A DNA stretch of 60,750 bases, the filler included, from Sphacelaria rigidula (Eukaryota): the NCBI GenBank assembly GCA_964200075.2. It is 8 parts of 8 records of this genome, joined end to end, with 100 filler letters (N's around TTAATTAATTAA, not from the genome) between each part and the next. Parts side by side here need not be neighbours in the genome. Positions count along the whole stretch, not along the records: positions 1 to 7,507 come from CAXNAA020014591.1; 7 more parts are not named here. One strand, written 5' to 3'. The notes under the pieces were generated by a model, which had not been told where the DNA came from, made no database searches, and worked only from the letters and a program-made list of their open reading frames with translations. Both the position numbers and the translations under genes were made by a program. The first letter of the stretch is position 1; the number at the start of each line of letters is the position of its first letter. Shown here in pieces: positions 1 to 49,832 of this stretch.

Positions 1-54
1 TAATAGGAGGCGGTTCTACCAGTTTGACCACCGGGTGCCAGACAAAAAAAGTGG

Positions 55-324
55 ATGCTGTGGGTAATTCGAAGAGTTAGGCGCTGAAATTTTGAAACAG
101 CATGTTTATTATCACTGCGCACAACATCTCTCGAGGTGCATCCGTTTTTTTTTTTTTCACGGTGTTATAGCATTTCTATAGTTTTTACAAAAAGTTCGAA
201 TCGCTCCAACTTCCTGTTTTATTTTCATTTTTTGCGAATGCACCTCGAGAGCTGTTGTGCGTAGTGATGATACAAATGTTGTGTCAAAATTTCAGTGCCT
301 AACTCTTCAAATTACCCACAGCAT
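55..324. mobile_element. Foldback/MITE-like element with ~90-bp imperfect terminal inverted repeats
   Basis: 55-144 (ATGCTGTGGGTAATTCGAAGAGTTAGGCGCTGAAATTTTG...CTCGAGGTGCATCCG) is the near reverse complement of 235-324; AT-rich spacer; no TSD recognised. Confidence 0.7.
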
Positions 325-413
325 TGCCAAAATACATTTTTTAAAAGTCACTCTCAGCCGGCCCAGCCTGTATCTACTTCAAAAACAAATGCCCATCGTG
401 GCAGTCGAAGGAT

Positions 414-453
414 TCAGTTTTGCAACTCAGTTTTGCAACTCAGTTTTGCAACT
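414..453. repeat. 13-bp tandem repeat (TCAGTTTTGCAAC) x3
   Basis: Three direct copies visible. Confidence 0.9.
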
Positions 454-1069
454 AAGGCAGGGAGAGATGACGCTGGCTAAGGGTTTGGTGTAATCTGATC
501 CTTGGTGATACCCATAGACAAACGGAACGAACGCAACGAGGAGATAAAAGATGACAACGCCATTCTGTACTTTACAGCACAGCACAGTTGTACTGTGCGT
601 TTCAGGTCAGATTTGTCTCGGCCTATACAGTCACCCGCATGGTTATTCGCGTTGCAGTGTCACACGTTTGACGTGAAAATGAATCATGAACAGACCATGG
701 GGGTGATGCAATGCAGCAAGGATGTGCGTGTCTAGGTGCAGAGCTTGTGCGACGGGATGGTGTGGCTAATATTCATTTTTCAAGTAAAAATAATACAGGA
801 GTCCAGTTTGAGATAACTCCACCGGTTTCCGGAGAGATCCTTTTATCAGTTACGGGATGGGAAGAGTCGAATATAATGCTAGGATAGCGGGACGCCGAGT
901 TTGAAGTACCTCTAATACAATAGCGCCAAGCTGGCTTAAAGGTTTTTTTGGGGGAGTCACACCTGTGTTGAGGTTTTTTCCCTACGCCTTTACTTCTGTT
1001 AACTGAACCCCACCGTAGTAAGTGAAAAAACAGTTGGGGTGAATTTCGGCGATTCGATCGTATCATCTA

Positions 1070-1207
1070 AATTCCACCAAAATTGTTTATTCGCCTAGGA
1101 CCTTCACCATGTCGGTCATTACGAACCATATCTCAAAGACATGGTGTGGATACGAGGATTTGAATTCTCCGGGTTCTCATCCTCAATAAAATACCCATCC
1201 CCAATTT
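1070..1207. repeat. Degenerate dispersed repeat, homologous to ~50940-51135
   Basis: Shared blocks CCTAGGACC, GAACCATAT, TGGTGTGGATACGA, CTCCGGGTTCTCATCCTCAAT in two different contigs; family not identified. Confidence 0.65.
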
Positions 1208-2249
1208 GTAAAATCCCGTTACGTATGGTAAGGAGTATGCAGGGGTCGTACGCGATCTCGTCATGCAACTGACGTCAATCGAAGCGGACCACAGGGGCTC
1301 CACATTCCAAGCACAGAAAAATAATTCCAAGTACGAGAGAAATCAGACTCACGTGTCCCTGACCAAGTCATGTGGATCCGTCGAATGTTCCTCCGGCAAT
1401 TATCTTTCATCCATTCCATTGCCCTAGTGAGGACATATCGTCATGGGAATACAACAAACCGAGCCCCAGCCGCCGGGAACGTCATCAACTTCAGAGGTAA
1501 ACGCGATTAAGGAGTTCCGCCAGCGGCATCGAGAGTTGATTCCGGTCCAAACGCTACAAATCAATCGCAGTCTTCGGAGTAAACGGGTGCAGAGACCAAG
1601 TGTGTTACCACGAATCTCGAAAAATTAGATAAAAATAAGATTGCCTGAGCTCAACCAATACAGTGCGGTACCATGTGCCGGGTTCGTCACCCAGTTGTCG
1701 CCAGCTATCTGTACTTCGTAGATGTAGAGAAAACACAAACTTCAAGAGGAATTGCATCGTTACGATAGAAGATGGAATTTTTTGTCCTTCGTGCACGGCA
1801 GAAACGTTCCACCACCGGCAGGACACGTACTGACGCCTTTGTAGAACATACGTCGTGCCTGTCCCGTGCGCATGTCACCCGTTCGAACCGAACGGTATTC
1901 TACCGTCTACACTCACTCGTTATGAAGGGCGAAACAGACGTAAACTAGGCTAAGAAGCCGGAGTATCCCCTGTTCGTCAACAACTTTCGTCTAATTACCA
2001 CACCCCGTCGCCCCAACGCTAGGTACTACACTGACGCATGCTGCGCCCTAACCTCGATTGAACGGCTAAAATCAACTTCGATCATCAGCAGCTGTGCAGG
2101 AGTGAATCACCACACCGCACACGCTCCCGACTGCTTCCAGCGCCTCCGGTTTTTTTTCCTGAATAGCCGCGCCCCTGTCCCATTGGCTTTTATATGCCTT
2201 GGTTTTGTCGAGTTAGGCTTCAGACTATCGTGAGGATTGGAATGTATCA

Positions 2250-5200
2250 ACCATGGGTGAATCGCAGCCCAACTGGTTGAAGTATTCTCCGCGTGTTAGC
2301 CGCTGCAATACACATGCCATTCCACATCCTTTTCATCAGTTGGTTGAAGGAATAATCGAACACAACTGCTGCATCGACGCCGGCCATGTCACACCCTCGA
2401 TCGGTTGGTAGAAAGTATGTCCGAACAGAAAAATGCTGCCGTGACGCAGGCCATGTCACACCCTCGATCGACTTGAAACTGCAACGACAAAGATTATGCC
2501 ACACTTCCGATCGACACAGGTTACACCACACTCTCAATCGACGTGCCACTAGGTGAGACTTGTCCGAACGTCAGCTCCTGCAGTGACGGAGGCCATACCA
2601 CACCGTTGATCGCCTGGTTGAAGTGTATTCCGAACGTAAGCTGCTGCAGCGACGCGGGCCATGCAACGCCCTTGATCCGTTGGTTGAAGAATCTCCCGAA
2701 CGTAAGCTGCTGCAGCGACGCAGGCCACGCCACACCCTCAATCGACTGGTTGAATGATCTCGCGAACGTCAGCTGCCGCAGGGACGCCGGCCATACCACA
2801 TCCTCGATCGGCTGGTTGAAATGCCTCTTAAATGTGAGGCGCTCCGGTGACGCGGGCCATGCCACACCCTTGATCGGCTGGTCGAAGAAGCGTCCGAAAG
2901 CCAGCTGCTGTAGTGACGCCGGCCATGCCACACCTTCAATCGGCTGGTTGAAGGAATATCCAAACGCCAGCTGCTGCAGTGACGCCGGCCATGCCACACC
3001 CTCAATCGGCTGGTTGAAGGAATATCCAAACGCCAGGTATTGCAGCGTTGCTCGCCATGCCACACCCTCGATCGGCTGGTTGAAGGAATCCTCGAACGCC
3101 AGGTGTTGCAGCGACGCCGGCCATACCACACCCTCGATTGGTTGATTGAAGGAATTTCCGAACGTCAGCTGCTGTAGTGACACTGGCCATGACACGCCCT
3201 CGATCGGCTGGTTGAAGTAATCCTCAAACGCCAGTTGCTGCAGCGATGCCGGCCATACCACACCCTCGATCGGCTGGTTGAAGGAATTTCCAAACGCTAG
3301 CTTCTGCAGTGACGCCGGCCATGTCACACCCTCGATCGGCTGGTTGAAGGAATCCTCGAACGTTAGCTTCTGCAGTGACGCCGGCCATTTCACATCCTCG
3401 ATCGGCTGGTTGAAGGGATTTCCGAACGTTAACTCCTGCAGTGACGCCGGCCATGTCACACCCTCGATCGGCTGGTTGAAGGAAATTCCGAACGTCAGCC
3501 GTTGCAGCGACGCAGGCCATGTCACATCCTCGATCGGCTGGTTGAAGGAATTTCCAAACGCTAGCTCCAACAGTGACGCCGGCCATACCACACCCTCGAT
3601 CGGCTGGTTGAAGGAATTTCCAAACGCTAGCTTCTGCAGTGACGCCGGCCATGTCACATCCTCGATCGGCTGGTTGAAGGAATTTACGAACGTTAACTCC
3701 TGCAGTGACGCCGGCCATGTCACACCCTCGAACGGCTGGTTGAAGGGATTTCCGAACGTTAACTCCTGCAGTGACGCCGGCCATGTCGCACCCTCGAACG
3801 GCTGGTTGAAGGAAACTCCGAACGTCAGCCGTTGCAGCGACGCAGGCCATGTCACACCCTCGAACGGCTGGTTGAAGGAATTTCCAAACGTTAACTCCTG
3901 CAGTGACGCCGGTCATGTCACACCCTCGATTGGCTTGTTGAACTCTTTTCCCACTGTCAGGCGATGCAGTGACGCAGGCCATGCCGCTCTCATGACCGGC
4001 TGGTTGAAGGCATTTCCAAAAGTCAGCTCCTTCATTGTCGACGGCCATGTCACACCCTCGATCGGCTGGTTGAAGGAAATTCCGAACGTCAGCCGCTGGA
4101 GCGACGCAGGCCATGCCGCATCGTTGACCGGCTTGTTGAAATCTTTTCCCAATGTCAGGCGATGCAGTGACGCAGGCCATGCCACATTCTCGATCGGCTG
4201 GTTGAAGGAAGTTCCGAACGCCAGCTGCTGCAGCGACGCAGGCCAAACCATACCCTCGATTGGCTGTTGAAGGAATATCCGAACCCCAGCTGCTGCAGAG
4301 ACGCAGGCCATGCAACAACCTTGATCGGCTGGTTGAAGGCATATCCGAACGTCACCTGCTGTAGAGACCCAGACCATGCCCCACCCTCGATTGGCTGGTT
4401 GAAGCGATACCCATATTTCAGCGACTCGGGCCATGCCCAAGCCTCGAACACGTAGTCAAAGAAGTTTCCGAATCTCAGCTGCTGCAACGAGGCAGGCCAT
4501 GTCACACCCTCGATCGGCTGGTCAAAGAAAAGTCCGAACGTCGGCTGCTGCAGTAGTCCAGGCCATGCCACACCCTCGATCGGCTGGTTAAAGTACTGTC
4601 CGAACCACAGCTGCTGTAGTAGCTCAGGCCATGTTACACCCTCGATCGGCTGGATAAATGAACTCCCGAACGTCAGCTGCCGCAGTGACGCAGGCCATGC
4701 CGCACCCTCGATCGGCTGGTTGAAGGCATCTCCAAAAGTCAGCTCTTTCATTTACGACGGCCATGTCCTACCCGCGATCGGCCGATTGAAGGAATATCCG
4801 AACACCAGCTGCTGCAGGAACGCGGGCCAATTCCACATCTTCGGTCGGCTGCTTGAATGAACCCCCGAACGTCAGTTGCCGCAGTGACGCAGGCCATGCC
4901 ACACCCTCGATCGGCTGCTTGAATTCTTTTCCGAATCAGCTGCTGCAACGACGCAGGCCATACCACACCCTCGATCGGCTGGTTGAAGGAATTCCCAAAC
5001 GTCAGCTGCTGCAGGGACGCAGGCCATCCTACACCCTTGATCTGCTGGTTGAAAGAATATCCAAACGTCAGCTCCTGCAGCGACACAGGCCAGACCACTT
5101 TCAAAATGGGTTTGTTAAAGCCCGCCGCCACGTATTCGTTCGAAAACACTATCTCCCTGACTTGCGGGGGCCAGACAACAGATTCTAGACCGCGATTGAA

Positions 5201-5558
5201 CTTCCTGTTGAAGTAAATGCTTCGCACGCTGGCCAAATGGTTGGTCGCGCAAGACATCAACGCTGTGTCAGCAGTCGACATCCACCTAATGCCACGTGCT
5301 CGTAATATCGGCACTCGAGTTACTCCAGTGCGGCCTCTATTTCCAGCTATCAGAGTCGGAGATTGCTCGGTCGTATCCGCCCATAGCCTGCGCGGCGTAG
5401 ATCCATCACACTTCACAAACAGAGTACATAGGCTGCGACAAGCGATGCAAATATGTATCGAAGCCAGCTGTAACTGCTTCGTCGGTAAATACGGCTCATC
5501 CGCGGAGGAAGTCTGGTTGAAGACAATGGTGGAAATCTCCAGACAAAAGTAGCTCCCT
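2250..5558 (-). pseudogene. FNIP-repeat (LRR-like) protein gene, disrupted by frameshifts and a nonsense codon
   Basis: ORF pieces 4748-5416, 4155-4751, 3913-4440 and 2521-3855 all encode 22-aa repeats FGxxFNQPIEGVxWPASLQxLx. TGA replaces a Trp codon at 3913-3915; 1-bp deletion near 4263; further shifts near 4750-4940. A non-repeat N-terminal region stays open up to a possible splice acceptor (TTTTTGCCCCAG) at ~5559. Ends are approximate. Confidence 0.85.
2560..5200 (-). repeat. Coding tandem array of 66-bp FNIP units (~40 copies)
   Basis: Recurring + strand core GACGCCGGCCATGTCACACCCTCGATCGGCTGGTTGAAGGAA at a 66-bp period; 20 units counted in ORF 2521-3855 alone; total estimated from length. 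Confidence 0.95.
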
Positions 5559-7507
5559 GGGGCAAAAATATGGAACGAGCACTTTGCTCGTTCAGCTCGT
5601 GTAGATCATCACAAGCGAACACATTAAACGCGACTTGATGACGCAGTCCTAGACCATTGCATATTCTGCACGCACGGCGCAGGAACTGAGGGTTCATCGT
5701 GATGCGAAATCTAACATCGCCGGCATTTATAATCCCGTTTCAGCCGCCACGTGTCTGCAGGAAGGTAATAAGTCCACTTACCGTCGAGTTATCACCTACG
5801 ACATGCGATAATTATCCGTACCACTTCAGCTTACAGCAGGTCTGTTCATAAGAGGTGAGGTGGACTGAGTTTTCAGCTCGTGGTATGGGTAGCTACGGCC
5901 TATCGAACACTTGCACTTGACTCCTCTCATATGCGCGTCACCATGCCAGTCAACCACAAATCGCCGTAGTAGGAACACTATTTTGCGCAAAGTCTTTCGT
6001 GCTCGGCAATGTGACAACACGCTGAGCTGTAAGTCCTCTACAAAAGTTCCAACCGTACGCGATATGTTCCTTATTACATGCACAAATTCCACTGCTCTTG
6101 GAACACCCTCACTTGCTGCCGTGTCAACAGCCTCAGCGACGCCACCCCCTGCAGCTTTGGAGTCGTCAGCGGCTAATATCTTGCGGCGAGTACGCACCAT
6201 CGTTCAGCAACTCTTTACTGTAGGTCACAAAGCCTCGGAAGCACGTGGGAAACCTCTCGTGATGTCTTCCGCTCGTGCGCACCTGAGATCGGAAATATGA
6301 GAAACGACATCGCGCGGGTGACTGAGTTACAGCACATTATGTAACGATCTAGAGCGCTCGAGTGCGCATCGTGCCGCTCGCTTGTTGTCAACAACTCGAA
6401 GCAAACTCACATGCGCACGATTCCACTGGACCGAAATCGTGGGGGTGAAGAAGCTTGCTTCGTATCGATCGTACGCGATCATGATCGAAGAAACATGAGA
6501 AAAAAATGTTCACCCGCGGGGTAAGTGAACACCACTAAATTCTTCGTCTGTTCAGTCTGCCCGTTCGCGTCTTTCTGCTCAGTCTGGGTGACTGCTGACA
6601 ACATACCAAAAGCTGTACCCAACTAAAGACCAAACCGGTCGCAAGCTGATCCTGTCTTTTGTCGCTCCTCGTCATATCTCTTGCTTTTCCCATGTTCTGT
6701 CCGTGGGCTCAAGTACTTCTTCACTGACCAAGTTCATCACGGAGATATTCGCGACATCTTGACCGTCAAAGAACAATTTCACCCAACACATGAACACTTG
6801 AGGTTTGGAATCCAACGCAATCCAAGGATGAAATTCAGTAGAAGCCATGACAGCGTCGCGGATACTCGTCTTTGGAGTTCATCTAAACAGCAACCCCTGA
6901 CGCAAAACATAAGAGACGTTGATGCATAGGTTTGCAAAAGTTGTATGAGATGATGTGCCTCTTGAATTTTGCGTTGTGTTTGGTACCAATTTCGGGTTTT
7001 AGGGTCGGGAAACACCCAATTGAGTGATCGATACCCCTCACTCTCATGTGCACACGCAGGGACGCCATCATGTTTGGCTTCCTTGTTTACCTGATATTTC
7101 TCTCTCACCAACCAGGGGCTTACAAACAGTACAAAACCGTTTGGGTTTGAGGGACGGTTATGCTGCGAGAAAAAACGCGACTTGCGTCTTTCCTACATTG
7201 TGCAGCGTATCACATTTCCATGTTTTGTACACCCAAGGGAATGATGTTACATTGACGCCGTATTGATGACGGCTTCAGTACCTTCATGACGGAAGCCCCT
7301 CACTAGCTATTCGGGGTGCACAGCAAAGTTACGAGACCATCGGGGCGGGGCGATAGCCTAAGCGACACCCTAGATGTGTGTTGCCGAAAAACACGAGAAC
7401 GTGCTTTTCCCGCGCAATTGCTCCGCACACCACATAACAGCAGATCCTATGTTTTGGGGTTGAAACATAATATGAGGTTGAAGTCCCATCCCTCCATTGC
7501 ATGGAAG

Positions 7508-7607
7508 NNNNNNNNNNNNNNNNNNNNNNNNNNNNNNNNNNNNNNNNNNNNTTAATTAATTAANNNNNNNNNNNNNNNNNNNNNNNNNNNNNNNNNNNNN
7601 NNNNNNN
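7508..7607. other. Artificial 100-bp contig linker (N44-TTAATTAATTAA-N44); same linker at 15115-15214, 22721-22820, 30327-30426, 37933-38032, 45539-45638, 53145-53244
   Basis: Identical linker with stop codons in all six frames; intervening segments are 7506-7507 bp. Confidence 0.97.
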
Positions 7608-7917
7608 ATCTATAGTGGCAGAATGTGAACTATACAAGGAGGAACGGGACGTGCTAGAGGGGGGAATGCGGGACGTGAACGAAGATAACATGGATCGTTT
7701 GATGTATTAGACAGTAGGGAGGAAACGATGGCTATACTAGGAGATCAGTGGTGGCCAGAGACGGCGAAACGGGACGGGGACAAGGTATGAAGAAGGTTTT
7801 TGCGTAATGTATGGAAGAAGCGTAATGAGCGCCGGACTGTTGGAGGTGGCTCCATTAGGAGTAGGAACGGTGCTCCGTCTCGAAAGGGGTGCGTGGTAAA
7901 TGGTCAAACAACTAAGG
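7608..7917 (+). mobile_element. Degenerate 3' end of a LINE-like ORF
   Basis: Translates (with frameshifts) as IVAECELYKEERDVLEGGMRDV...AILGDQWWPETAK...RNVWKKRNER, resembling the HxxxxC/C-terminal region of non-LTR ORF2. Confidence 0.5.
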
Positions 7918-8202
7918 NNNNNNNNNNCACAAGGTGTGGGGTGTGGTTGAGCAAACAACAAAGTTTAGCAAAAAAGCTTACCTCCCCCCCCCCCCCCCCC
8001 CCCCCTTCGTCAGCTCCGCCCTCTTTCAGGCCGCGTTTTTTTAATTTTCGAGTTCAATATATCTGTTGTCTTGACATTAAAAACGCTCCGATATCTGCGG
8101 AGTACTCTGTACTGGGCATCTGATGCGGACGCCTTCATTGGTCACAGGCTAACTACCCCAAGCTAGGGTAGAAGAAAAAATATGAAATAAGTCGAACCCA
8201 TC

Positions 8203-8285
8203 GTACGTCTATCATGAGACCACGGCTGGACCCCCGGGGGGTCAGTTCAAGTGCGACAATCAATCGATCGATCAATCAATCATCA
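8203..8285 (+). mobile_element. Family A retroposon 3' end, (CAAT)n tail, heavily 5'-truncated
   Basis: GTACGTCTATCATGAGACCACGGCTGGACCCCCGGGGGGTCAGTTCAAGTGCGACAATCAATC; matches the copies at 21527, 32683, 33407 and 50109. Confidence 0.8.
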
Positions 8286-10861
8286 GAAACAGTTCACCCA
8301 CACGCGATACACATGAAAATAACGAATAAAATGAAAATATATAAAGCAAAAATAGGGGGAAAATACTGCTTGCCCCCCAAGATCTGATACCGTATGCGAT
8401 CATTCGGGCAACTGGAGGCAGATCCCATTGGTCCACTCAAGACGCGAAGCCAAACAGAGGAAGGGAGCAGAACTCAAGGACCAAGATCACCAGTCATAGC
8501 GATCACAGGGTTCTATCTTCGTACCTCTGGAGGAAAAGTAATGTGTACGGATATACTGTGCTAGGCATAACAGGAAAAATACCACATAGCAACACACCAC
8601 CTCGGGGGAGGGGTGCATGGAAGTCTGCAATAAGTAGTAGGGAAAAATAAAAGAGAAGACGATGCAAATACATTCGGGAACTTGAAACGAGCCCAAAAAA
8701 TTACGGATAGGGCAAAACGTCACACAGACAACATGGGCGAAGTCGGATTTGGGCGACCGGTACATAGCGCAGAGGACGAGAAGAATAGCCCTCCCTAGGG
8801 ATGCTTTCTACCATAAATTCAGGGGTGGTACCCACCGTTTTCGCCCATACCATGCGAGTGGCAATACGTTTGGGTTATATCAAAGTTTTCCGGGATACTT
8901 GCGAGATATGGAAATTATGAAAAATATAAACATTTCCTCATCCAGAAATCTACTGATAGTGCCCCCCCCCCCCCCCATTCCCAATCACATGTCACACTGG
9001 TGGTATCTACCGTTTTCGCCTGTTGTACAAAAATGGTCATGCACCTCAACACCCAAACGCACTGAGAAAATGTGTAAACAATGAAGCATTTGACCTATCC
9101 CCCCCCCCCCGTTTCTCCCCCCCCGGGGATGGAATTGTATTCCTTCCCTAGATATGATGGGTGTGCTATCTATCGTCTTCGCTAGTGTGGCATCGTACAC
9201 ACGAATGACGATGCCCCCGAACACCCGGGGAGCATTATTATCCCCTACCTGAACAGTCTCAGCGGGAAGGGAATGTTATATAACGTTTTAGTCGTTTGCG
9301 GCCGGATGTTCATGAACCTGAACATTTGACCAGCACCAGGAGAAAGGGTGCGATCTACCCTAACTAGTGATACATATCGCTATTCTTAACGAGACTGTAG
9401 ACACGCGGGGGAGATGCTGTTCCATCCCCTGCCAAAACACGCGTAGCGCATAGCGGTCAAAATGCACCGCCAGGACCTGTTTTAGACGCGGGATTTTACA
9501 AGTTGAGGATGGTATTTTGTTGAAAATGAAGCTTGAGAACCTTCATAAGCATTGAAATCTTTTCGAAATGTGAATGCAAATCCACCCTCCGGACGCGATG
9601 CGTGGCCCCGCTCATCCTCCATAGAATTCATTCGCAAGTTGTACAATCCCGTGTTTACTCCCAAATGATCCGTCCCCCGTTCATTCCCGTACTCAAAAAC
9701 TGTTGTTGTTTGTCATGAATCCTCTGTTACCGCGGAATCTTACAAGTTGCGGATGATTTTTTTTAATAAGAAGGAGCAAGGCCACACACCACGGCCGGAT
9801 AGTGCATTTGCATTTCATTTTCGAGAATATTGCGATGCTTACTAAGGTTACCAAGGTTCACCCTCGAATGAAAAAAGCCTCCTCAATTTGTAAAACCCTG
9901 CGTTTATGTACGAACAGTGATACCCCTGAACACGACGCGGGAGGCATCGTTCCAACGCACCCACGCTATCCTACTGCTTTAGGACTCCCTACCTTCCTCG
10001 CCCCTTCTCCCCGAGGATGACTTCAGCGCATCGCCTCCCCGAACAACGACAGCGGAAAAGGGGTGTCATCCGACGTTTGGGTCATTTGCGACCGGGCAAC
10101 AATGAATCTGAACACGTGACCGCTACAAATGGAAACTCTACAACCTACCGGAAGTAGCATAATCGTTTTTGTGTTTCTTGACGAGACTGGAGACACTTCT
10201 GGGGAAACATTGTTACACCCCCTCCCCAAGTACGCCCTGGGATCAAGATACCGTCAGGACTTGTTAAATACTAATGGCGAGGCCCCTGAACACGCGAGTC
10301 GTGACTGGAACGCATGCACCCTACTTGCTGATTTGAGAGCATCCTTCCCCCCTCCCCGACCATGAGATAGGCATATTTCCTCCCCGAAAACCCTCGCCTA
10401 GGGAGAGGGTGTTGTTTGACGTATTGGCCATTTGCGGGCGGACTACAGTGCACGCATGAGAGTTATCGTACAAACACGGAAACTCTCGCTATAGTATGTA
10501 CCCCATGAATAGTCAACAACACTGTGATAGCTTTCGTTTGCGACAGGACAAAACGGCGGATACCACTTCGGGGACGGTTACTTTCCTATTCCTGGAAAGA
10601 CCACGGGCCTTACCTCCACATGAGCTATGAATACATTTGCAAATGTAGTCGCACTTACCACGCGGAAAATGTTCGACTCTTAATGACGTGTTGGATGTGT
10701 GCTGAAACAACCGAAACAAGAGCGGGGCAACATTAGCCCGTAGGCTGTTCTAAATTCAAATGAATTGGTCAGGACCTTCACATGGCATTTGCCACGACTG
10801 ACATCACCCGATTCGGCCGCAGATTACGCCTACCCCCCCTGATTCGATAACGTAGAGTACC

Positions 10862-11180
10862 GCGCCCCGGTGGTGTAATGGTCCGACTGTCGCAAGAAGG
10901 GTGGACAGAAAGAGGGTTTGATTTGCGATGCGTTGGGATTTTTCTTCGCAATGTCTGATTTCCGCCGTGGAAAGCGTGAGAACGTGAGTAAACAAAGTAG
11001 TCGGCTGCATTTGTTTGAGGTAAGTTGACGCGGTGCGGGAGTGCTGATAGTCATGACCCAACCCGCGAGACCAAAATGCAAGGTGTGTGCCGGGGGAGAA
11101 AGAAACGCGTCGATCCCTTGAGACCACGGACTCATCCCAAGGAGGGGGGGGGGTTCAAAGTGCGACGAATAATAAATAGT
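10862..11180 (+). mobile_element. Family B tRNA-derived SINE
   Basis: Head GCGCCCCGGTGGTGTAATGG (A box), degenerate B box GGTTTGATTTG, body homologous to 17399-17724, A-rich tail. Confidence 0.75.
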
Positions 11181-12524
11181 AAGATTCGATATCCGAGGTT
11201 GCCTTCTATGATAACATATGCCGTGGATACCTGAATTGGGAGTGCGATTTTTTCAACAGTCATTTTTCAATGAAGGGTTAATATCGCAGAACGCACCTCA
11301 GATTCGGTGTCTACACCGAATTTCCAGTCGGAGAATACATATTTTTCTCGATTTAAGTAAGAAATGAGCCCGCGACAATTCGGCCAAAAATAGCCGAGAA
11401 CCGCCCCCCTGACATACACGCATGTAGAGGCTGCGTTTCTGCGGATGAATCAACATCAGATATGGACATGCGACTGAAAGCAAACAGCGGCACGAACACC
11501 CTGATGTGGACTGCGACAGAAACATCACCACTAGGCGGCTCTCCGTCGCTCCCTCCGCCTGTTACGTGGCATGACCCTATGCTTTCGACGCCTTGTGCGG
11601 CGCCTCTGATGCGATGTGCCGTACGGCGACAATCGGAAAGGATCACAGACAGCAGCAAACTTGGTATTCAGTTGGCACAAGCAGATGCATCAGTAGATAC
11701 ACGTATACACACACAAATATATACACATGTATACATATGAGTAGACGGGGGAACTGCGTAGGGGTCCGCAGGATGTTTAGCAAGGTCAGGATAGCAGTGT
11801 CGGATTGCCCAGGTCAAATCTCTGCGTGTTGTTGTGCGCGAGAGATGGCGCGAGCCGGTGGCTGTGTGTCTACGGACAACGTCAAATCAGAGTGTGTCCG
11901 TGTGCAAGCTTCGTGTAGAGGATTGGTGTACATTGCTTCTCCGTGTCCTCGTAACAAATACGAGTCCCGCGCCGCGCAATTATTGAACTCGATTCATGAT
12001 AGCTGGACCTCATTCGTTTTGAGCTTGAGAGATCCACAGGGCAAAATAGCGCGTCATGATCGGCTGAAATTGCATGGCATTTGATTTGATTGTACGTACC
12101 TACGGGAGGTCTGCTAAATTCCATGCGCACTATGCCGAAACTCGACGCTCCAAGCTTCAAACTTGAATGAAATCCTGGGGGCTATTGGAAAAAGTGACGG
12201 CGAGAGCAACTCGAATCCTGCGAGTCATTTGCAAAATCATAACAGTCCTGAGTCGAATGATTGATTATATCGTTCATGGCCAGTAGGATATTTTCCCCAT
12301 GAGACATTCGAACGAATGGCTACTCGTACGGTAATCGTGAAGTCAACGAGCCCGAGTCACGCGAGTCAAACTGGGTCTGGTTCCAATATCTGAAAGACTG
12401 GACCGCTTTCCAAAACACACACACACACACACACACATCTACACACACTTGCGGCGGAGAAAGCCGACAACACCATGGAAGTACACCTATCTTGCAAGTT
12501 GTTCTTTCTCGAGCGGTGAACTTT

Positions 12525-14428: not shown

Positions 14429-17398
14429 GGTCTCATAATCGGGAAAAAATGGGCAAGCTATTGGTCTAGTTTTGTAAGGGGTCGAAATTCTCGTGTGTAT
14501 TTGTTCAAATTACAGTCATTTCGCTAGCCCGCGACAGCGCTCCCGCACGATGACGCCGAAGGTCGAGCAATGGGCTGATGTAGAGTACTGCTGTGCAGTA
14601 ATAAAGAGACTCCAGGCTCGGAGATATGCGTTACCATGTTTTTTCTTATAACGGGGGTATTGAACCTGAAGCTACTGCAGAAATCAGAGGGAGGAGACTC
14701 TATTTACGCGAACGTCAAGTACCATAGCCACATTGTGGTGCTTGTGCATGGTCGGCATATGGCGTGCCCCGTACCTGTTTGCTCAGCGTTCTGCCACAAT
14801 ATCATATTCGAGCCATACACACGGAAGCAGACAACACGTACGGAGCTTTAAGCACGGGGCTTGAGGTTAGACTCCCTCTGGGCGGATTTATGAGCAACGT
14901 TCGGGAAAACGGAATGTAAGCAAGGTTGGTATGATGATGGCCCAAAGCGGGTCTTCTGGGCACTGTGGACCATCGGACAACGTTTGTATATGATCAGGTA
15001 CCACATTGAAAAAAAAGAACCGATGAGGTTGAGGGGGGGGGGGGGGTTGTGCGTAAAAATCCCCTGGTCAGTCATTTCGGTGGAGATCCAGCTTTTTTGT
15101 ACCCAGCGACGGATNNNNNNNNNNNNNNNNNNNNNNNNNNNNNNNNNNNNNNNNNNNNTTAATTAATTAANNNNNNNNNNNNNNNNNNNNNNNNNNNNNN
15201 NNNNNNNNNNNNNNAAAAAGAAAAAACAACGGAGCAAATAGAAACCCCCCCCCCCCCCCCCCCCCCTGCTTTTAACGTCCGCGAACAATGTTTCCAGCGA
15301 TTTTTTCACACCCTTGACAAGGGATTGTGTTGTCAAAAAATGTACTGCGTACAGTGTGGGATATATTGTGTGCTGCAATAGGCGCAATAGTCGATACCGT
15401 ACGCAGTACACTTCATGACTTGTGTATTCTTTTGTTCAGGGTGTGGATTTTTTCACCCATGAATTGCTTGAAAAAAAGGGGAGGCTGATACCATGGATAT
15501 CTGTGACGGATCAAGTCACAAGATACTGCATCAACCCATTTGCGGTAATATTAATCGGACAGCAGCCGGCGTCTTGTCAAAGAGTGCCCAAACGACAGGC
15601 TCGGTCCCCTTGTTAACTGAGCAGATTTTTCCATGCAACGCTTGGTTCGTCCAAGCCAGGTAAGGTCATTGGGGTCTGCAGATCATGTCTCGCGAAAATT
15701 CAGGCAAGAACCGCCAGAAATCGTGGGTGCCTACGCGTTGTTGGGGTGCCGCACACGTATCGTGCATTTTGAAGCCACCGTCTATCGCGCTTGGGGTCCG
15801 TCCCGATCGATGCACACCGGGTTACGCGTTTCTTGTCACTCGTTGGCGACACAACCCCAACCCCGCCCTACAAGAATTACAATCTGCCGCAGAAACCCGT
15901 CACGTCCTACGCACAGAAAGCGATAGATCGCGCCCGTTGCCACAAGGCCATCACATTTTTCTGGTTCCCCCGTCAGTTCCCCCTCCTTCACAAGGCCCCC
16001 GGACCAATATGCCTGCACAACATTTCAGGGCAAAACCTCCTCGTCCCTACCGTGATTCGGCGCGTGGTTTGGACCGAAGTAACATTCACAGTCAACCTAC
16101 CCGAGGGAACCGGGGTGTAGAACGCACTGGGAAAACGACCTAGCCATGATTGGGCGAGGCAGTTGCTGCCGCGCTGGCGCCGGCCTTGGTACATTTCACG
16201 GCTCATCCCGTGGCAAAAGGAGACACGCGGGATCCCAGTGCTACGCCAAAGTTCCATGCCAGCGGCAGCGGTGGGGGCGGTGACAGCGGCGGCGGTGGTA
16301 ACAGCGAAGGCGAAAACAAAACGCAACGCAACGCAGACGACGACGACAACGACGTCGACCAGGAGTGATGATGACCGGCGAGTTCTACGTCTAAGCTCGT
16401 CGGGATAAGTTTATCCCCCGGTTCACTGATTTGTAGAGAGGAAAAAAAAAGAGAGTGAGATCTCGAGACGTCGGCAACGAGTCGTTGCTTCCATCTCCTG
16501 GGGTGGGTGCGCGAGTGTCCCGTCCTCTGCGCCCGGCGGTACACATAACCCGTGGCATGATTCGCACATCGTACGTCGACATGATTCGCCCAGTCGTTTA
16601 CCGCGCTGAGAAAGACGACCCATCCGCCCGAGATTTCCGTCCAACCCAGGAGGATGGAAACCGTGTCAAACCCCCGCCATCATCGCCCATTGCAGACCAA
16701 GCATCGCTCGATGATTTGTTCTCGGGAACGAAATTCCAGCTTCTGCTCCCATCTTGATGCCCCAAGACTTCGGTATCAAGTTCGGATTGTCCGTGACCAC
16801 ACGCTCGCTCGCGGGGATTAGCCAGAACAGAGCCTGTCACGGTAGCGCGGAGGAGAGATCACAGCGCTTCGTGGTTTCCCTCATCGCCCTCAAAATCGCG
16901 TCCTGTCTCACTTCACCAAGCTCCCGGGAGACGGCATAATCAGCCACCGCTGCTGATATCACGTTTGGATTGTTCGTGATCGCACGAACAGATTATCACA
17001 CACCGCAGTGTCCGGGCAACGTACGCCAACCGCTATTTTCCCGTACCACCACTCAGTACTCGAAGAGTACCCGCCTGGTTGTGGCCTACGGTGTTACGTC
17101 AACGCCTTATCCCCATGTCCAACGATGACAGACTAGTATCGTGCGATAAGTCCTCTCGCGGAGATCTACCGCGTTCCGTCCTCCTAGATATCGCGACTCG
17201 TTGGTCCTTCAAGGTAGTCCCGGAAATTATGTACTGGTACGTGCCTCCTCCCGTGTCCCCTCAGTGCTTCCTTCTGCAAAAACCAGGTTTCTGGTCAGCA
17301 AGGACCGCCACCCGCCCGGAGTACTCGGCATCTTCAGAGGACACCTGAAGCTCGCTATTCCGTTTCTTGTGTTCCTACTGCCCTATATCTTTGCCGTC

Positions 17399-21944: not shown

Positions 21945-22820
21945 TTCATCCATTCTCAACAGTACGAACATATGGATGAAATTGGATGAAAACGGATGCA
22001 ACGTACGAGAAATAAAACCCGTTCATAACGGCCCTTCGTACAGTATTTGCAAATTACCAAGAGAAGCAGGAAGGGTAGGGTACCCGGTCTCTGTGTTATA
22101 CTGTGGATCCCTGGTCCACGGGCAAAGGATCGGGCATGGTCTGCGAGGCATACTGTAGAGCGGGTGGTGTTTCTCTTGATCGCAATACTCATGGTAAACA
22201 ATCATATTGCGCACCACTCACGAACACACCCACGAACGAAAACATTCTAAACCAAAACACTTTTCAACCTAGGATTCCGGAAGCCCTCCCCCCCCCTCTC
22301 TATCAGGGCTGCCGGTTCACTCGGGAGCGGCTTGCCGAGGGGTGGGATAGGACTGGATTTTTACCCGCCGTTACGCCTCCTACATTTTTCTACTACAAGC
22401 AGGGAGTGCTAGCTACTGAAATTAAGTGGCAAACTGTTTTCAGGCTATTCCGAAGTCATACCAGTTTATGAGCCATGCTACGAAGAGGAGGGGGGAAGGG
22501 TGTTTGATTCCACGAAAAAGAAGACTCATGGATGTATCAGACGACCTACAGCCCTCGCGGTGCGCTTGTACTTGGGTCCAAGCGGCGTCAACAAGGATGA
22601 ATGAGCATTAATTATTCGTAAGAAGTGCGTTTGAACAACCCAAGGGTCGGACAAATAATGAGTCGTCTGGAAATTACTTGGTTTTAGTAGAATTGATTCG
22701 AATCGTACAAATCAATCCCTNNNNNNNNNNNNNNNNNNNNNNNNNNNNNNNNNNNNNNNNNNNNTTAATTAATTAANNNNNNNNNNNNNNNNNNNNNNNN
22801 NNNNNNNNNNNNNNNNNNNN

Positions 22821-25800: not shown

Positions 25801-25893
25801 ACGACTACGGGGTCGTTTAACGCCCTTCCTACCAAGCAACACGGTACTGGTAGGTTTTATCCCAAGTGCTACGGGCACAACACCTGGGCACCC
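22821..25893 (-). CDS. pol: Pol polyprotein (aspartic protease, RT, RNase H), 3'-truncated
   Basis: Uninterrupted >1000-aa frame: LTIDTASDVT (protease), SPWGSP...RFCVDYR, MPFGVCNAP, YMDD (RT), VHVDSS...KECCGVV...TDHSAL...NVVPDALSR (RNase H). Confidence 0.95.
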
Positions 25894-30529: not shown

Positions 30530-30789
30530 TTTAACCATCACTAGCTAGTACTTCCTGTTTATCCCTTTTGAAAAAAACATGAAAGTCCCATTTTCGGTTT
30601 TCCAGGATAAACGTAAACGTTTCCACGATGTGGGCGTCAAATTGAAACTACGCGGTCGCCGACGACAATCCTGAGGGCTAACCTCTCTCGATGCAATACA
30701 CTGGAAGCTTAATCGAGACCTACTTGTGTCGTATTACGACCGCTGCACCTGATTTGTCTGTCTTTTCTGTCCGTTGCTGTCCGCATCAG

Positions 30790-30927
30790 GTCGTCAAGCT
30801 GCTGGTGGGGATGTATGGTGCGGAATTCGCCGTTCCTGCAGGAAACGGATCGACACCCCTACACTGGGCGGCCTCGAAAAACCGGAGAGCGATAATACGA
30901 TTGCTGGTGGGCACCTACTGCGCCCAG
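30790..30927 (+). CDS. Ankyrin-repeat protein, internal exon A
   Basis: CAG|...|GT boundaries; VVKLLVGMYGAEFAVPAGNGSTPLHWAASKNRRAIIRLLVGTYCAQ. Confidence 0.9.
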
Positions 30928-35194: not shown

Positions 35195-35493
35195 GTGAAT
35201 GTTTGTACATGTATGCATACTCTAGTCTCTCGTGTCAGACTCTTGTCTCGCGAGTGATTTCGTTTTTTTTTTTTTCATGACTTCGTAGGTGACTACACAC
35301 AGCAAGACGAAACACTCATGCTTCTGCGAGTCAGCGTGTCCTGATGCGAACATTTACGAGTTGAATTTCATGAGAGTGCTTGTGCAGAAAGGTCCCAGAA
35401 TATCTCGAATAGTGAAATATTGAATGTGTGCATGTGAACATGTCTGTGTGTGTGTGCGTGTGTGTGTTTTCATACTCGTGTTATGTTTTGCAG

Positions 35494-35655
35494 GTAACGA
35501 CACACGACAAGCGACGCACCAACTTGCTGCACGCAGCGTGCGAGATGGGACACGCGGACATGGCCACGTTTTTGATAGAGCGCTACCACATGTCGGTGGA
35601 GGAGCCTGACCGGAGAGGGCTAACTCCGCTGGCGAGAGCCTCCCTGCGAAACCAT
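35494..35655 (+). CDS. Ankyrin-repeat protein, internal exon C
   Basis: TTTTGCAG|...|GTAAGC; VTTHDKRRTNLLHAACEMGHADMATFLIERYHMSVEEPDRRGLTPLARASLRNH. Confidence 0.9.
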
Positions 35656-49519: not shown

Positions 49520-49832
49520 ACCACCACAAACCACCATAACAACAAAACAAAACAANNNNNNNNNNCATTAAACAATTTTTCATTTTTTGGACGTCGTTGT
49601 GGGTGGCCTCTACCAACACCCCCCCCCCCCCCCCCCCCCCCCCCCCCTTGTGAATTGATCATGAGTACACCCCCTCGTGAATCATGACTATGGCATGCAT
49701 GATCATGAGTACACCCCTCGAGAATCCGCATGGGATATTTCAGTATATGTATAGATATATAGATTAATCTGACCCCCCGGACACTACCAAGCGTTGACGT
49801 CTAACCGTTACCCTCAACACGCCTTTCAACAG

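What the first reader, a model, noticed from the sequence alone, without database searches (positions are those of the whole stretch)
2560..5200. FNIP/LRR array with a near-invariant DNA scaffold and hypervariable codons: candidate variable-receptor system
Seen: about 40 units of 66 bp in which FNQPIEG and WPASL are largely fixed, while the positions in x-L-x-F-x-x-x vary widely (RLTFGVS, ELTFGNP, ELTFVNS, KLAFGNS, KLTFEDS, QLAFEDY, YLAFGYS, QLAFGRF, RLTFKRH, QLTFGIH, QLWFGQY, RLTLGKD). Established: FNIP is a 22-aa LRR-like repeat, and in LRR solenoids the residues alternating with the L/F core of the beta strand form the ligand-binding concave face. Inference: diversifying selection or unit shuffling on a binding surface, analogous to VLR/NLR-LRR diversification, but within one continuous array with no introns between units. 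It could be an algal recognition repertoire or a virus-derived effector family.
Basis: partly seen in the sequence, partly recalled or inferred. Interest (0 to 1): 0.75.

Follow-up and report, generated by a model that had tools for sequence, protein, structure and literature searches.

The report
Decayed FNIP-repeat gene, brown alga
This is a long run of 22-residue FNIP leucine-rich repeats from a large, already described brown-algal gene family, but this copy is broken by frameshifts and stop codons, so it is an ordinary dead family member and not a working variable receptor.

Summary
The repeat array is real. It lies on the minus strand, about 45 units of 66 bp from 5235 to 2273, behind a family-specific N-terminal module (5605-5240). 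It is a Crov539-type "WP" FNIP/FGxxFN leucine-rich repeat (Pfam E 1.5e-98; solved CroV588 and CroV539 at E 6e-120 and 6e-65). Its relatives are brown-algal proteins.

The array is not one reading frame. It carries three frameshifts and three premature stops, has no usable ATG, and ends in decayed units. Short-read contigs from three runs of two studies reproduce five of the seven lesions.

However:
- The profile matches the family-wide one (rho 0.93) and is already published, VLR comparison included (PMC9525666).
- Only 2 of 66 DNA columns are invariant, and synonymous change is common in the scaffold.
- dN/dS at exposed codons is 0.8-1.6 and never significantly above 1.

A recent five-unit block duplication shows ordinary unequal crossing-over.

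Verdict: a pseudogenised member of a known family, of low interest. The one open lead is weak: the N-terminal module may be F-box-like.

The parts
5240..5605 (-). Remnant of the family-specific N-terminal module (CLxA..VAL.Q...WY.ST..LQLASL..C.ACR...TPR.L...RVP.LRA..V.W). It is in frame with units 1-4, has no ATG, and has in-frame stops just upstream (about 5620).
   Evidence: tblastn of 120 homologues reaches 5605. Translation is and alignments. The module is found in 104 of 120 homologues and in 168 cluster representatives at E<=1e-3. The conserved 'WY.ST' reads 'PYLPT' here.
2273..5239 (-). Array of about 45 FNIP/FGxxFN units of 66 bp. Units 1-2 are irregular, units 3-41 are well formed, and units 42-45 are decayed.
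   Evidence: TRF; unit-by-unit alignment; Pfam PF05725 on all four ORF pieces with E 1.5e-98, 2.9e-29, 9.6e-29 and 1e-18.
2521..3855 (-). Longest open piece, 444 codons covering units 22-41. It contains no ATG. It starts just after the TGA of unit 21 and ends at a TAA that replaces the Trp codon of unit 42.
   Evidence: AlphaFold2 gives pLDDT 93.2, pTM 0.88 and 20 strands at a 22-residue period. Foldseek matches 6nyr_B (E 5.6e-25, TM 0.74) and 7zal (E 1.8e-14).
4935..4936 (-). Frameshift 1: 2 bp missing in unit 5, between 4936 and 4935.
   Evidence: It lies in none of the contig pieces listed, so reads did not verify it.
4830..4832 (-). Frameshift 2: 1 extra base at the end of unit 6, which is 67 nt long.
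   Evidence: It lies inside gap-free contigs 4696-4910 (X1, X4) and 4665-4910 (X3).
4752..4754 (-). In-frame TAA at codon 4 of unit 8. The sister unit 19 has ACA there.
   Evidence: The same contigs of X1, X3 and X4 carry it.
4266..4267 (-). Frameshift 3: 1 bp missing in unit 15 (TTCAA-CAGCC).
   Evidence: It lies inside gap-free contig 4216-4352 of X3.
3913..3915 (-). TGG>TGA at the Trp codon of unit 21.
   Evidence: unit 21 against unit 23. The listed read contigs do not cover it.
2521..2523 (-). TGG>TAA at the Trp codon of unit 42. Units 42-45 downstream carry further indels, and no C-terminal cap follows.
   Evidence: Contigs 2200-2734 of X1, X3 and X4 keep the TAA. No match to homologues' C-terminal tails outside the array beat E 0.015.
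3190..3849 (-). Recent duplication of a five-unit block: units 22-26 (3849-3520) and units 27-31 (3519-3190).
   Evidence: Unit identities are 22/27 95%, 23/28 95%, 24/29 91% and 25/30 100%.

Best explanation
The locus is a pseudogenised copy of a brown-algal FNIP/FGxxFN leucine-rich-repeat gene of the Crov539-type WP subclass. When intact, such a gene encodes an N-terminal family-specific module followed by a curved solenoid. In that solenoid W1, L5, L8, F10, F14, N15 and I18 build the core, while the residues between them (positions 7 and 9 on the beta strand, 12-13 in FGxxFN, and 22) are free surface positions.

The fixed-scaffold, variable-codon pattern is the fossil of ordinary purifying selection on the core and near-neutral drift on the surface. 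The array grew by unequal crossing-over of single units and multi-unit blocks, including a very recent five-unit block.

This copy has since lost its start, taken three frameshifts and three premature stops, and has no recognisable C-terminal cap. It most likely makes no protein.

Shown: family membership, fold, the lesions and their presence in independent read sets, the codon statistics, and the block duplication. Inferred: that the gene is not rescued by splicing, and the ligand-binding role of the surface positions in living paralogues.
For: Family and fold:
- Pfam FNIP E 1.5e-98. PDB sequence hits are CroV588 at 6.1e-120 and CroV539 at 5.7e-65.
- The model of the open tail has pLDDT 93.2 with 20 strands on unit positions 7-10. 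Foldseek puts 6nyr and 7zal on top.

Host family:
- 665 proteins score E<=1e-5 among 7,998 scored candidates. The named ones among the best 120 are mostly Scytosiphon, Ectocarpus, Pylaiella, Ascophyllum and Hapterophycus.
- 104 of the 120 share the N-terminal module.

Lesions:
- They are listed unit by unit.
- There is no ATG in the N-terminal frame, and stops lie upstream.
- No C-terminal cap was found.
- The +1 in unit 6, TAA in unit 8, -9 in unit 13, -1 in unit 15 and TAA in unit 42 lie inside gap-free contigs of other runs. No indel against the window is listed in any of the 4 runs.

Selection:
- Overall omega is 0.66. Core codons give 0.35-0.40. Exposed codons give 1.2-1.9 with no significant excess: the smallest per-site P is 0.023 over 22 codon columns (21 informative; the invariant Trp column gives P = 1), and the pooled P is 0.11.
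- The open tail gives 0.77-1.00 at exposed codons.
- Core-codon omega is higher in the broken head (0.48-0.49) than in the open tail (0.21-0.24).

Polymorphism: of 16 cleanly mapped differences in other runs, 13 are non-synonymous and 3 synonymous. Only 2 fall in the five hypervariable codons, where the codon share predicts about 3.6. Several hit core residues such as P2, S4, I18 and V21.

Family-wide identity of the pattern: rho 0.93.
Against: - The 444-codon tail is still open and its core codons show a clear purifying signature (omega 0.21-0.24). Inactivation may therefore be recent, or the tail could be used as an exon.
- The open frame is partly explained by how young units 21-31 are (85-100% identical).
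- Two lesions, the -2 bp in unit 5 and the TGA in unit 21, lie in none of the listed read contigs.
- Splicing around the lesions cannot be excluded without transcript data.
- The best-holding run may be the sample the window was assembled from, so only X3 (another study) and X4 (another sample) are independent.
- My dN/dS is a home-made parsimony count on a poorly resolved tree of 66-nt units.
Confidence: 0.8

Rival explanations
1. The array, or the family it belongs to, is a recognition repertoire whose concave-face residues are under diversifying selection. This locus would be a recently dead or still partly used member, as happens in birth-and-death receptor families.
For: - The variable codons sit on and next to the beta strand.
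- Point estimates of omega at exposed codons exceed 1 when all units are used (1.2-1.9).
- Among 13 recently duplicated unit pairs, the five hypervariable codons carry 19 non-synonymous and 0 synonymous differences.
- The family is large: 665 hits, 121 genes in Saccharina japonica (PMC4421812, passage read) and 104 sequences in a brown alga (PMC9525666, Discussion read).
- Multi-unit duplication occurs.
Against: - No test is significant: P = 0.11 pooled, P = 0.92 in the open tail.
- The five codons were chosen because they vary, and the 13 pairs overlap.
- Entropy at variable sites is exactly the family average, as expected for unconstrained surface positions.
- This copy is broken.
Confidence: 0.15
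2. The gene is functional. The apparent lesions would be removed by introns, or they would be assembly errors.
For: - Brown-algal genes are usually intron-rich (recalled, no call).
- The 444-codon piece is open.
- Two lesions are not verified by the listed read contigs.
Against: - The 66-bp register continues straight through every lesion, so any intron would have to remove whole or partial repeat units.
- Five lesions are reproduced in gap-free contigs of other runs.
- The start is missing and stops lie upstream in the homologous frame.
- The 3' end runs into decayed units without a cap.
Confidence: 0.1
3. The locus is part of a recently integrated giant-virus (Nucleocytoviricota) segment, that is, a virus-derived effector gene and not a host gene.
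For: - The nearest solved and viral relatives are CroV proteins.
- One IMG/VR locus on a 617,453-bp viral contig matches at 52% identity over residues 1-433.
- The literature regards brown-algal FNIP genes as virus-related (PMC4421812 passage; bioRxiv 10.64898/2026.04.27.720984 section 8). An FNIP pseudogene sits inside a viral fragment in Ectocarpus (PMC2373305 passage).
Against: - No viral hallmark gene was found. Of 119 ORFs of at least 100 codons outside the array, none matched a viral family in Pfam, and none in 1-7507 matched anything.
- The closest relatives by far are brown-algal proteins that share the N-terminal module. The named non-algal hits lack that module.
- Only 7.5 kb is surely contiguous with the array, so this test is weak.
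Confidence: 0.07
4. The units are diversified somatically or by a template-driven mechanism, either VLR-like cassette copying or retroelement (DGR-like) mutagenesis.
For: - It shows a fixed scaffold with variable codons.
- The consensus of the most variable codon is AAT.
- A reverse transcriptase ORF lies in the window at 22765-25878.
Against: - The RT carries RNase H domains typical of LTR retrotransposons, lies at least 17 kb away, and is beyond linkers that may separate unrelated pieces.
- Only 5 of the 14 most variable nucleotide columns have consensus A, so there is no adenine bias.
- Contigs from three runs are identical to the window, apart from point differences, wherever they are unique.
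- The gene is dead.
Confidence: 0.02

Closest known systems
Crov539 (PDB 7zal), the WP subclass of FGxxFN/FNIP LRR proteins of Cafeteria roenbergensis virus (Huyton et al. 2022, PMC9525666)
   Same: It has the same 22-residue consensus, LxxLxFGxxFNQPIExVxWPxx. The window's unit is WPASLQQLTFGNSFNQPIEGVA. The sequence match is E 5.7e-65. Foldseek E is 1.8e-14 for the 444-aa model and 1.1e-5 for the N-terminal model. The paper notes that the xx of FGxxFN is the most variable position and that a brown alga has 104 such sequences, mostly of WP type.
   Different: It is a viral protein of 12 repeats with its own N-cap and a cap-swapped dimer. The algal family has a different N-terminal module of about 100 residues and many more repeats. 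This copy is broken.
Crov588 (PDB 6nyr), a closed circular FGxxFN LRR
   Same: It is the best sequence match (E 6.1e-120) and the best fold match (6nyr_B, TM 0.74, E 5.6e-25). It has a long regular array of 25 repeats.
   Different: It belongs to the LP subclass, without the Trp spine and without Pro at the FNQP position. Whether the algal array would close into a ring was not examined.
The FNIP gene family of brown algae: 121 genes in Saccharina japonica (PMC4421812), and one of the largest orthogroups in brown algae (bioRxiv 10.64898/2026.04.27.720984, section 8)
   Same: The best protein hits are brown-algal FNIP proteins at 36-63% identity. The N-terminal module is shared (104 of 120), and the per-position variability profile is the same.
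   Different: No hit is nearly identical, so this locus has no annotated product in the collection searched. It is a pseudogene.
FNIP-repeat pseudogene in a viral DNA fragment of the Ectocarpus genome (Delaroque and Boland 2008, PMC2373305, passage read)
   Same: It is a decayed FNIP-repeat gene in a brown-algal nuclear genome.
   Different: That one lies between EsV-1-like ORFs. No viral neighbour is seen here. The sequences were not compared.
LRR-ROCO and NB-ARC-TPR candidate pathogen receptors of Ectocarpus with exon shuffling (PMC3341825; PMC11378527; search listing and start of abstracts only)
   Same: They are brown-algal repeat-domain families proposed as fast-evolving receptors that diversify by reshuffling repeat units.
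   Different: According to those abstracts and my recall, each repeat there is a separate exon and the repeats are joined to signalling domains. Here the units are contiguous, of a different LRR class, and joined only to a small N-terminal module.
F-box plus FNIP proteins of giant viruses (Megavirus baoshan, cited in the PMC9525666 Discussion), and F-box-LRR receptors TIR1 and COI1
   Same: The architecture is a small helical N-terminal module followed by an LRR solenoid. The Atlas feature search on a homologue's N-terminus lists F-box and F-box+FNIP clusters at 0.77-0.81. TIR1 (Z 9.8) and COI1 (Z 9.4) are among the few structural matches that extend over the N-terminal helices.
   Different: Pfam finds no F-box in 0 of 16 proteins, even at E<=5. 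A profile of the module finds nothing in the PDB at E<=10. All the signals that favour an F-box are below the level those tools call reliable.

Membership tests
FNIP / FGxxFN LRR (Pfam PF05725) | Pfam model score above the curated cut-off | tested here: met
   323.2 bits against a cut-off of 21, E 1.5e-98, 11 stretches on the 444-aa piece. The other three pieces score 101.4, 99.7 and 67.6 bits.
FNIP / FGxxFN LRR (Pfam PF05725) | 22-residue period with the FGxxFN motif (double Phe spine plus Asn) | tested here: met
   Period 66 bp. F10 36/39, G11 33/39, F14 38/39, N15 31/39.
Crov539-type WP subclass | WP in place of LP/IP at the end of the repeat, together with Pro in FNQP | tested here: met
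   W1 38/39, P2 37/39, P17 33/39. The definition comes from PMC9525666, section 12.
Crov539-type WP subclass | Solenoid fold like the solved structures | tested here: met
   Model pLDDT 93.2 with 20 strands. Foldseek gives 6nyr_B E 5.6e-25 (TM 0.74) and 7zal E 1.8e-14. VIA gives 6nyr Z 11.7 and 7zal Z 11.4 for the first units.
Brown-algal FNIP family (N-terminal module plus WP repeats) | N-terminal module with the invariant L-Q, C..CR, RVP and W | tested here: met
   All ten invariant columns of A3 are kept in the window's copy, although the conserved 'WY.ST' has decayed to 'PYLPT'. The module is present in 104 of 120 homologues.
Brown-algal FNIP family (N-terminal module plus WP repeats) | Intact reading frame with start codon | tested here: not met
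   Three frameshifts, three premature stops, and no ATG in the N-terminal frame. Five of the seven lesions are reproduced in other runs. It is therefore a pseudogene of the family, not a functional member.
Receptor family under diversifying selection (NLR-LRR-like) | dN/dS significantly above 1 at solvent-exposed repeat positions | tested here: inconclusive
   Omega is 1.2-1.56 (P = 0.11) over all units and 0.77-1.00 (P = 0.92) in the open tail, for seven codons chosen a priori. This is a home-made parsimony count between units of one locus, with no orthologue data.
VLR-like somatic assembly | Incomplete germline gene flanked by donor LRR cassettes; unit order differs between cells or individuals | tested here: inconclusive
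   No indel against the window appears in contigs of 4 runs. However, contigs break inside the repeats, and the joints seen (for example 3218/3816) cannot be told apart from paralogues. No genome was available to look for cassettes.
F-box proteins | Match to an F-box profile | tested here: not met
   0 of 16 proteins match, counting the window's N-terminus and 15 homologues, at E<=5. The profile of the module finds no PDB chain at E<=10.
F-box proteins | Three-helix F-box fold in front of the LRR | tested here: inconclusive
   The model shows two helices (18-32 and 42-58) at pLDDT about 60-70. TIR1 and COI1 alignments span them at Z 9.4-9.8, tied with many plain LRRs. Atlas feature scores are 0.77-0.81, below the 0.9 bar.

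The most novel reading that the evidence does not exclude
The brown-algal FNIP family, which is hundreds of genes sharing an undescribed N-terminal module of about 100 residues, could be a virus-derived and massively expanded set of F-box-like substrate receptors. Their concave faces would diversify by unit duplication and birth-and-death. The locus studied here would be one of its corpses, caught shortly after a five-unit duplication.
Probability: 0.2. Interest if true: 0.5.

Novelty: new member of a known kind. Interest (0 to 1): 0.15.

Why it matters
It matters little for this locus. It adds one more dead copy to a gene family that is already known to be very large in brown algae. The family's fold, repeat consensus and variable positions are published.

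The useful outcome is negative. A fixed scaffold with variable x positions in an LRR-type array is the default signature of any solenoid repeat. It is not evidence for a diversification system by itself.

The only point that might repay work is at family level. These genes share a conserved N-terminal module that no Pfam or PDB search could name. If it proved to be an F-box-like adaptor, it would give the first functional handle on one of the largest brown-algal orthogroups.

Tried and rejected
- **Own genome:** none is held, so paralogues could not be counted.
- **RNA evidence:** no RNA holder is listed for the stretch. The run guessed to be RNA (X8) gave only short contigs, 95-99% alike, on repeat-shared parts and none on the unique flanks. 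This says nothing about expression.
- **Joints in read contigs** (3218/3816 skipping 597 with 3 letters between; 4596/4153; others): their sides are only 18-34 letters and they fit paralogous units equally well. They were not used as evidence for or against unit-order variation.
- **N-terminal module:**
  - The word-based protein search with the window's own copy found nothing (49 candidates, none at E<=1e-3).
  - Pfam at E<=5 named no domain in the module (the only hits outside the repeats were far below their cut-offs).
  - The PDB profile search found nothing.
  - The Foldseek and VIA lists are filled by the LRR part.
- **Viral relatives:** The search for related loci with alignment A1 was not run because no conserved stretch was found. 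It was repeated with the single protein.
- **C-terminal cap:** tblastn with the last 80 residues of 120 homologues gave nothing better than E 0.015 outside the array. Only 16 of 120 homologues have the GIEWP-like cap motif, so its absence is weak evidence.
- **DGR-like mutagenesis:** rejected, as there is no adenine bias.
- **Rfam on 1-12000:** no family.
- **Earlier findings of this scan:** nothing relevant.
Full report
**What is there**

Tandem Repeats Finder reports one array at 2563-5092 with period 66, 38.5 copies, 76% matches and score 2334. The coding sense is the minus strand. No single ORF spans the array. It is split into four ORF pieces: 4748-5416, 4155-4751, 3913-4440 and 2521-3855. 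All four match Pfam FNIP (PF05725), with E 1e-18, 9.6e-29, 2.9e-29 and 1.5e-98.

Aligning the region to a tandem consensus cuts it into 45 units, from 5235 down to about 2273. Units 1-2 are irregular, units 3-41 are well formed, and units 42-45 are decayed.

**Family and fold**

The unit WPASLQQLTFGNSFNQPIEGVA is the Crov539-type consensus LxxLxFGxxFNQPIExVxWPxx described by Huyton et al. 2022 (PMC9525666; sections 3, 12 and 15 read).

- The 444-codon piece matches the solved CroV588 (6nyr, E 6.1e-120) and CroV539 (7zal, E 5.7e-65).
- Its AlphaFold2 model, built with 31 sequences in the alignment, has pLDDT 93.2 and pTM 0.88. It has 20 beta strands at an exact 22-residue spacing.
- The strands cover unit positions 7-10 (x-L-x-F).
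- Foldseek puts 6nyr_B (E 5.6e-25, TM 0.74) and 7zal (E 1.8e-14) on top.

Positions 7 and 9 alternate with the core L/F on the strand, and positions 12-13 (the xx of FGxxFN) follow it directly.

**Whose gene it is**

The protein search found 665 proteins with E<=1e-5 among 7,998 scored candidates. Among the best 120, the named ones are mostly brown algae: Scytosiphon promiscuus, Ectocarpus spp., Pylaiella littoralis, Ascophyllum nodosum and Hapterophycus canaliculatus. One Durusdinium and one Dictyostelium protein also appear. Identities are 28-63% and none is near-identical.

tblastn of these 120 proteins on the window matches only 2228-5605.

Upstream of the repeats, in frame with units 1-4, lies a module of about 100 residues. 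It aligns with the N-termini of the algal proteins.

- An HMM of the module finds it in 104 of the 120 homologues. The 16 without it include the Dictyostelium and Durusdinium proteins.
- The window's copy finds 168 cluster representatives at E<=1e-3, 15 at E<=1e-10 and none at E<=1e-30. The match is almost always at the target's N-terminus.

In IMG/VR the only relative found lies on a 617,453-bp viral contig, at 52% identity over residues 1-433. By that length I recall this to be the CroV genome.

The literature already reports this family as large:
- 121 FNIP proteins in Saccharina japonica, with CroV as the nearest relative (PMC4421812, passage read).
- 104 sequences, mostly of WP type, in a brown alga (PMC9525666, Discussion).
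- FNIP as one of the largest brown-algal orthogroups with a putatively virus-derived domain (bioRxiv 10.64898/2026.04.27.720984, section 8 read).
- An FNIP pseudogene in Ectocarpus (PMC2373305, passage read).

**The copy is broken**

Relative to the unit register:

| Unit | Lesion | Window position |
|---|---|---|
| 5 | 2 bp missing | 4936/4935 |
| 6 | 1 bp extra | about 4830 |
| 8 | TAA at codon 4; sister unit 19 has ACA | 4754-4752 |
| 13 | 9 bp missing, in frame | between 4423 and 4422 |
| 15 | 1 bp missing | 4267/4266 |
| 21 | TGA for Trp | 3915-3913 |
| 42 | TAA for Trp, then further indels in units 43-45 | 2523-2521 |

The shifts (-2, +1, -1) never cancel.

- The N-terminal frame has no ATG before the repeats and has stops just upstream, where a homologue still aligns.
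- The 444-codon piece contains no ATG at all.
- No C-terminal cap like that of some homologues follows the array. That motif is present in only 16 of 120 homologues, so this is weak evidence.

**Are the lesions real?**

Logan contigs of three runs from two studies were laid on 2200-5800, along with one run guessed to be RNA. The kind of the three runs is not on record as RNA.

- The +1 in unit 6 and the TAA in unit 8 lie inside gap-free contigs 4696-4910 (X1, X4) and 4665-4910 (X3).
- The -9 in unit 13 lies inside 4329-4517/4520 (X1, X3, X4).
- The -1 in unit 15 lies inside 4216-4352 (X3).
- The TAA at 2521-2523 lies inside 2200-2734 (X1, X3, X4).
- No insertion or deletion against the window is listed in any run.

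The -2 in unit 5 and the TGA in unit 21 fall in none of the 32 pieces listed (1,081 more are not shown), so they remain unverified. X1 may be the source sample of the assembly.

**Differences in other runs**

One search lists 24 point differences at 23 places. Sixteen map cleanly to codons of units 2-41. I dropped 8 rows: four in decayed units 42-45, three in unit 41 from its 6-base insertion onward, and one in the N-terminal module.

- 13 are non-synonymous and 3 synonymous.
- Only 2 of the 16 fall in the five hypervariable codons.
- Several change core residues.

This is what a neutrally drifting sequence would show. Some of these differences may come from paralogous contigs.

**The variable-codon pattern**

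In the 39 well-formed units, amino-acid entropy is highest at codons 12 (3.07 bits), 13 (2.24), 22 (2.06), 7 (1.99) and 9 (1.60). It is lowest at W1, F14, P2, L8, L5 and F10. The DNA, however, is not a near-invariant scaffold:

- 2 of 66 columns are invariant.
- The consensus FNQPIE 18-mer is exact in 14 of 39 units, and the WPASL 15-mer in 4 of 39.

A parsimony count of codon changes on a FastTree tree of the units gives 87 synonymous and 184 non-synonymous changes, for an overall omega of 0.66. Synonymous change per synonymous site is at least as high in scaffold codons as in variable ones. The scaffold was therefore kept by selection on the protein, not by a DNA-level copying mechanism.

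**Is there positive selection?**

| Codon set | Units used | Omega | Test result |
|---|---|---|---|
| Five most variable codons (chosen post hoc) | all 39 | 1.4-1.9 | smallest per-site P 0.023 over 22 codon columns (21 informative) |
| Seven exposed codons chosen a priori (3, 7, 9, 12, 13, 19, 22) | all 39 | 1.20-1.56 | P = 0.11 |
| Same seven | broken head, units 3-21 | 1.19-1.24 | P = 0.14 |
| Same seven | open tail, units 22-41 | 0.77-1.00 | P = 0.92 |
| Remaining 15 codons | broken head | 0.48-0.49 | not tested |
| Remaining 15 codons | open tail | 0.21-0.24 | not tested |

The seven a priori codons are those with family entropy of at least 3 bits.

Among 13 recently duplicated unit pairs, the five variable codons carry 19 non-synonymous and 0 synonymous differences. 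This looks striking, but the sites were chosen for being variable and the pairs overlap. Measured against all 18 synonymous differences, the excess is not significant by my rough estimate, which was made by hand and not in a call.

The data therefore fit neutral surface positions. They neither show nor exclude diversifying selection.

**Is the pattern special to this array?**

No. I cut 715 clean WP-to-WP units from the 120 homologues.

- Their per-position entropy correlates with the window's at Spearman rho 0.93, and at 0.92 against the mean within-protein profile of the 49 homologues with at least 8 units.
- The window's mean entropy is 2.19 bits at variable sites, against 2.14 +/- 0.35 within homologues.
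- It is 0.70 bits at scaffold sites, against 0.70 +/- 0.19.
- Positions 1-2 are fixed by my way of cutting the units.
- The family consensus printed by MAFFT has x at the same places.

Huyton et al. state that the FGxxFN xx positions are the most variable, propose concave-face binding, and compare the repertoire with VLRs (PMC9525666, Discussion).

**How the array grew**

Units 22-26 and 27-31 are a recent five-unit duplication, with identities of 95%, 95%, 91% and 100% for the first four pairs. Units 18, 22 and 27 are 92-97% alike. Units 8/19 and 17/20 are 86% alike. The overall mean identity is 75%.

This is the footprint of unequal crossing-over in a tandem array. It also explains why a 20-unit stretch is still open: much of it is too young to have collected stops.

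**The N-terminal module**

No Pfam family names the module: 0 of 16 proteins have a credible domain hit outside the repeats at E<=5, and none matches F-box. A profile of the module finds no PDB chain at E<=10.

The model of the window's N-terminus plus four units has pLDDT 75.4. It shows two helices (18-32 and 42-58) in front of the first strands.

Three weak leads point to an F-box-like adaptor:
- The Atlas feature search on a homologue's N-terminus lists F-box and giant-virus F-box+FNIP clusters at 0.77-0.81, below the tool's 0.9 bar.
- TIR1 (Z 9.8, model range 11-223) and COI1 (Z 9.4, model range 15-223) are among the few structural matches that extend over the helices, but they are tied with many plain LRRs.
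- Giant-virus FNIP proteins with F-boxes are known (PMC9525666, Discussion).

I rate this at about one in three. It is not needed for the verdict.

**Context**

Every 7,607 bases the window carries a 100-base linker of 44 N, TTAATTAATTAA and 44 N. Only 1-7507 is therefore surely contiguous with the array.

In that piece, no ORF of at least 100 codons outside the array matches Pfam, and Rfam finds nothing in 1-12000.

Elsewhere in the window there are a retrotransposon RT/RNase H ORF (22765-25878), copia-type gag fragments (38124-40003), and ankyrin exons (30682-30987 and 35416-35736). No viral hallmark gene was seen.

**Verdict**

The interpretation as a variable-receptor system is not supported for this locus. 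The locus is a pseudogenised member of a known, very large brown-algal FNIP/FGxxFN family, and its fixed-versus-variable pattern is the family's ordinary structural signature.

Noticed in passing
window 7508-7607, 15115-15214, 22721-22820, and so on every 7,607 bases: There are 100-base linkers made of 44 N, TTAATTAATTAA and 44 N. They look like six-frame-stop spacers between joined pieces, so the window may not be one contiguous stretch of genome. Three further 10-N gaps lie at 7918-7927, 49556-49565 and 57763-57772.
   Followed up: partly
window 5240-5605 (-) and homologues P0001-P0120: The brown-algal FNIP proteins share an N-terminal module of about 100 residues, with invariant L-Q, C..CR, RVP and W. 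No Pfam or PDB sequence search names it. Weak signals suggest it is F-box-like.
   Followed up: partly
window 2521-5092 (-), codons 14-22 against codons 2-13 of the unit: Synonymous third positions are about twice as conserved in the second half of the unit as in the first half. The match to consensus is 0.91 at codons 17 and 20-22, against 0.69 at codons 2-4, 8, 9 and 11. Codon bias, or conversion tracts anchored in FNQPIEGV, are possible causes. It remains unexplained.
   Followed up: no
window 2543-3145 (+) and 3278-4270 (+): Antisense ORFs of 200 and 330 codons run across the array. They are by-products of a repeat whose reverse frames lack stops, not genes.
   Followed up: no
window 2524: Three different letters occur at one site across three runs: C in the window and X1, T in X3, A in X4. 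All three are synonymous (GTG, GTA, GTT) in the codon just before the terminal TAA.
   Followed up: no
window 2684-2804, 4499-4619, 4862-4982: Summed contig depth is 40-70 times the single-copy level in all DNA-type runs. Tens of paralogous FNIP units elsewhere in this genome therefore share stretches that are at least 95% identical.
   Followed up: no
window 22765-25878 (-), 38124-40003 (-), 30682-30987 (+), 35416-35736 (+): There is an LTR-retrotransposon RT/RNase H ORF of 1,037 codons that runs into a linker. There are also copia-type gag and gag-pre-integrase fragments, and two ankyrin-repeat exon-like ORFs.
   Followed up: no
window 55-144 and 235-324: A 90-nt inverted repeat, 89% complementary, has its arms 90 nt apart, about 2 kb downstream of the array's 3' end. 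It may be a small foldback or MITE-like element.
   Followed up: no
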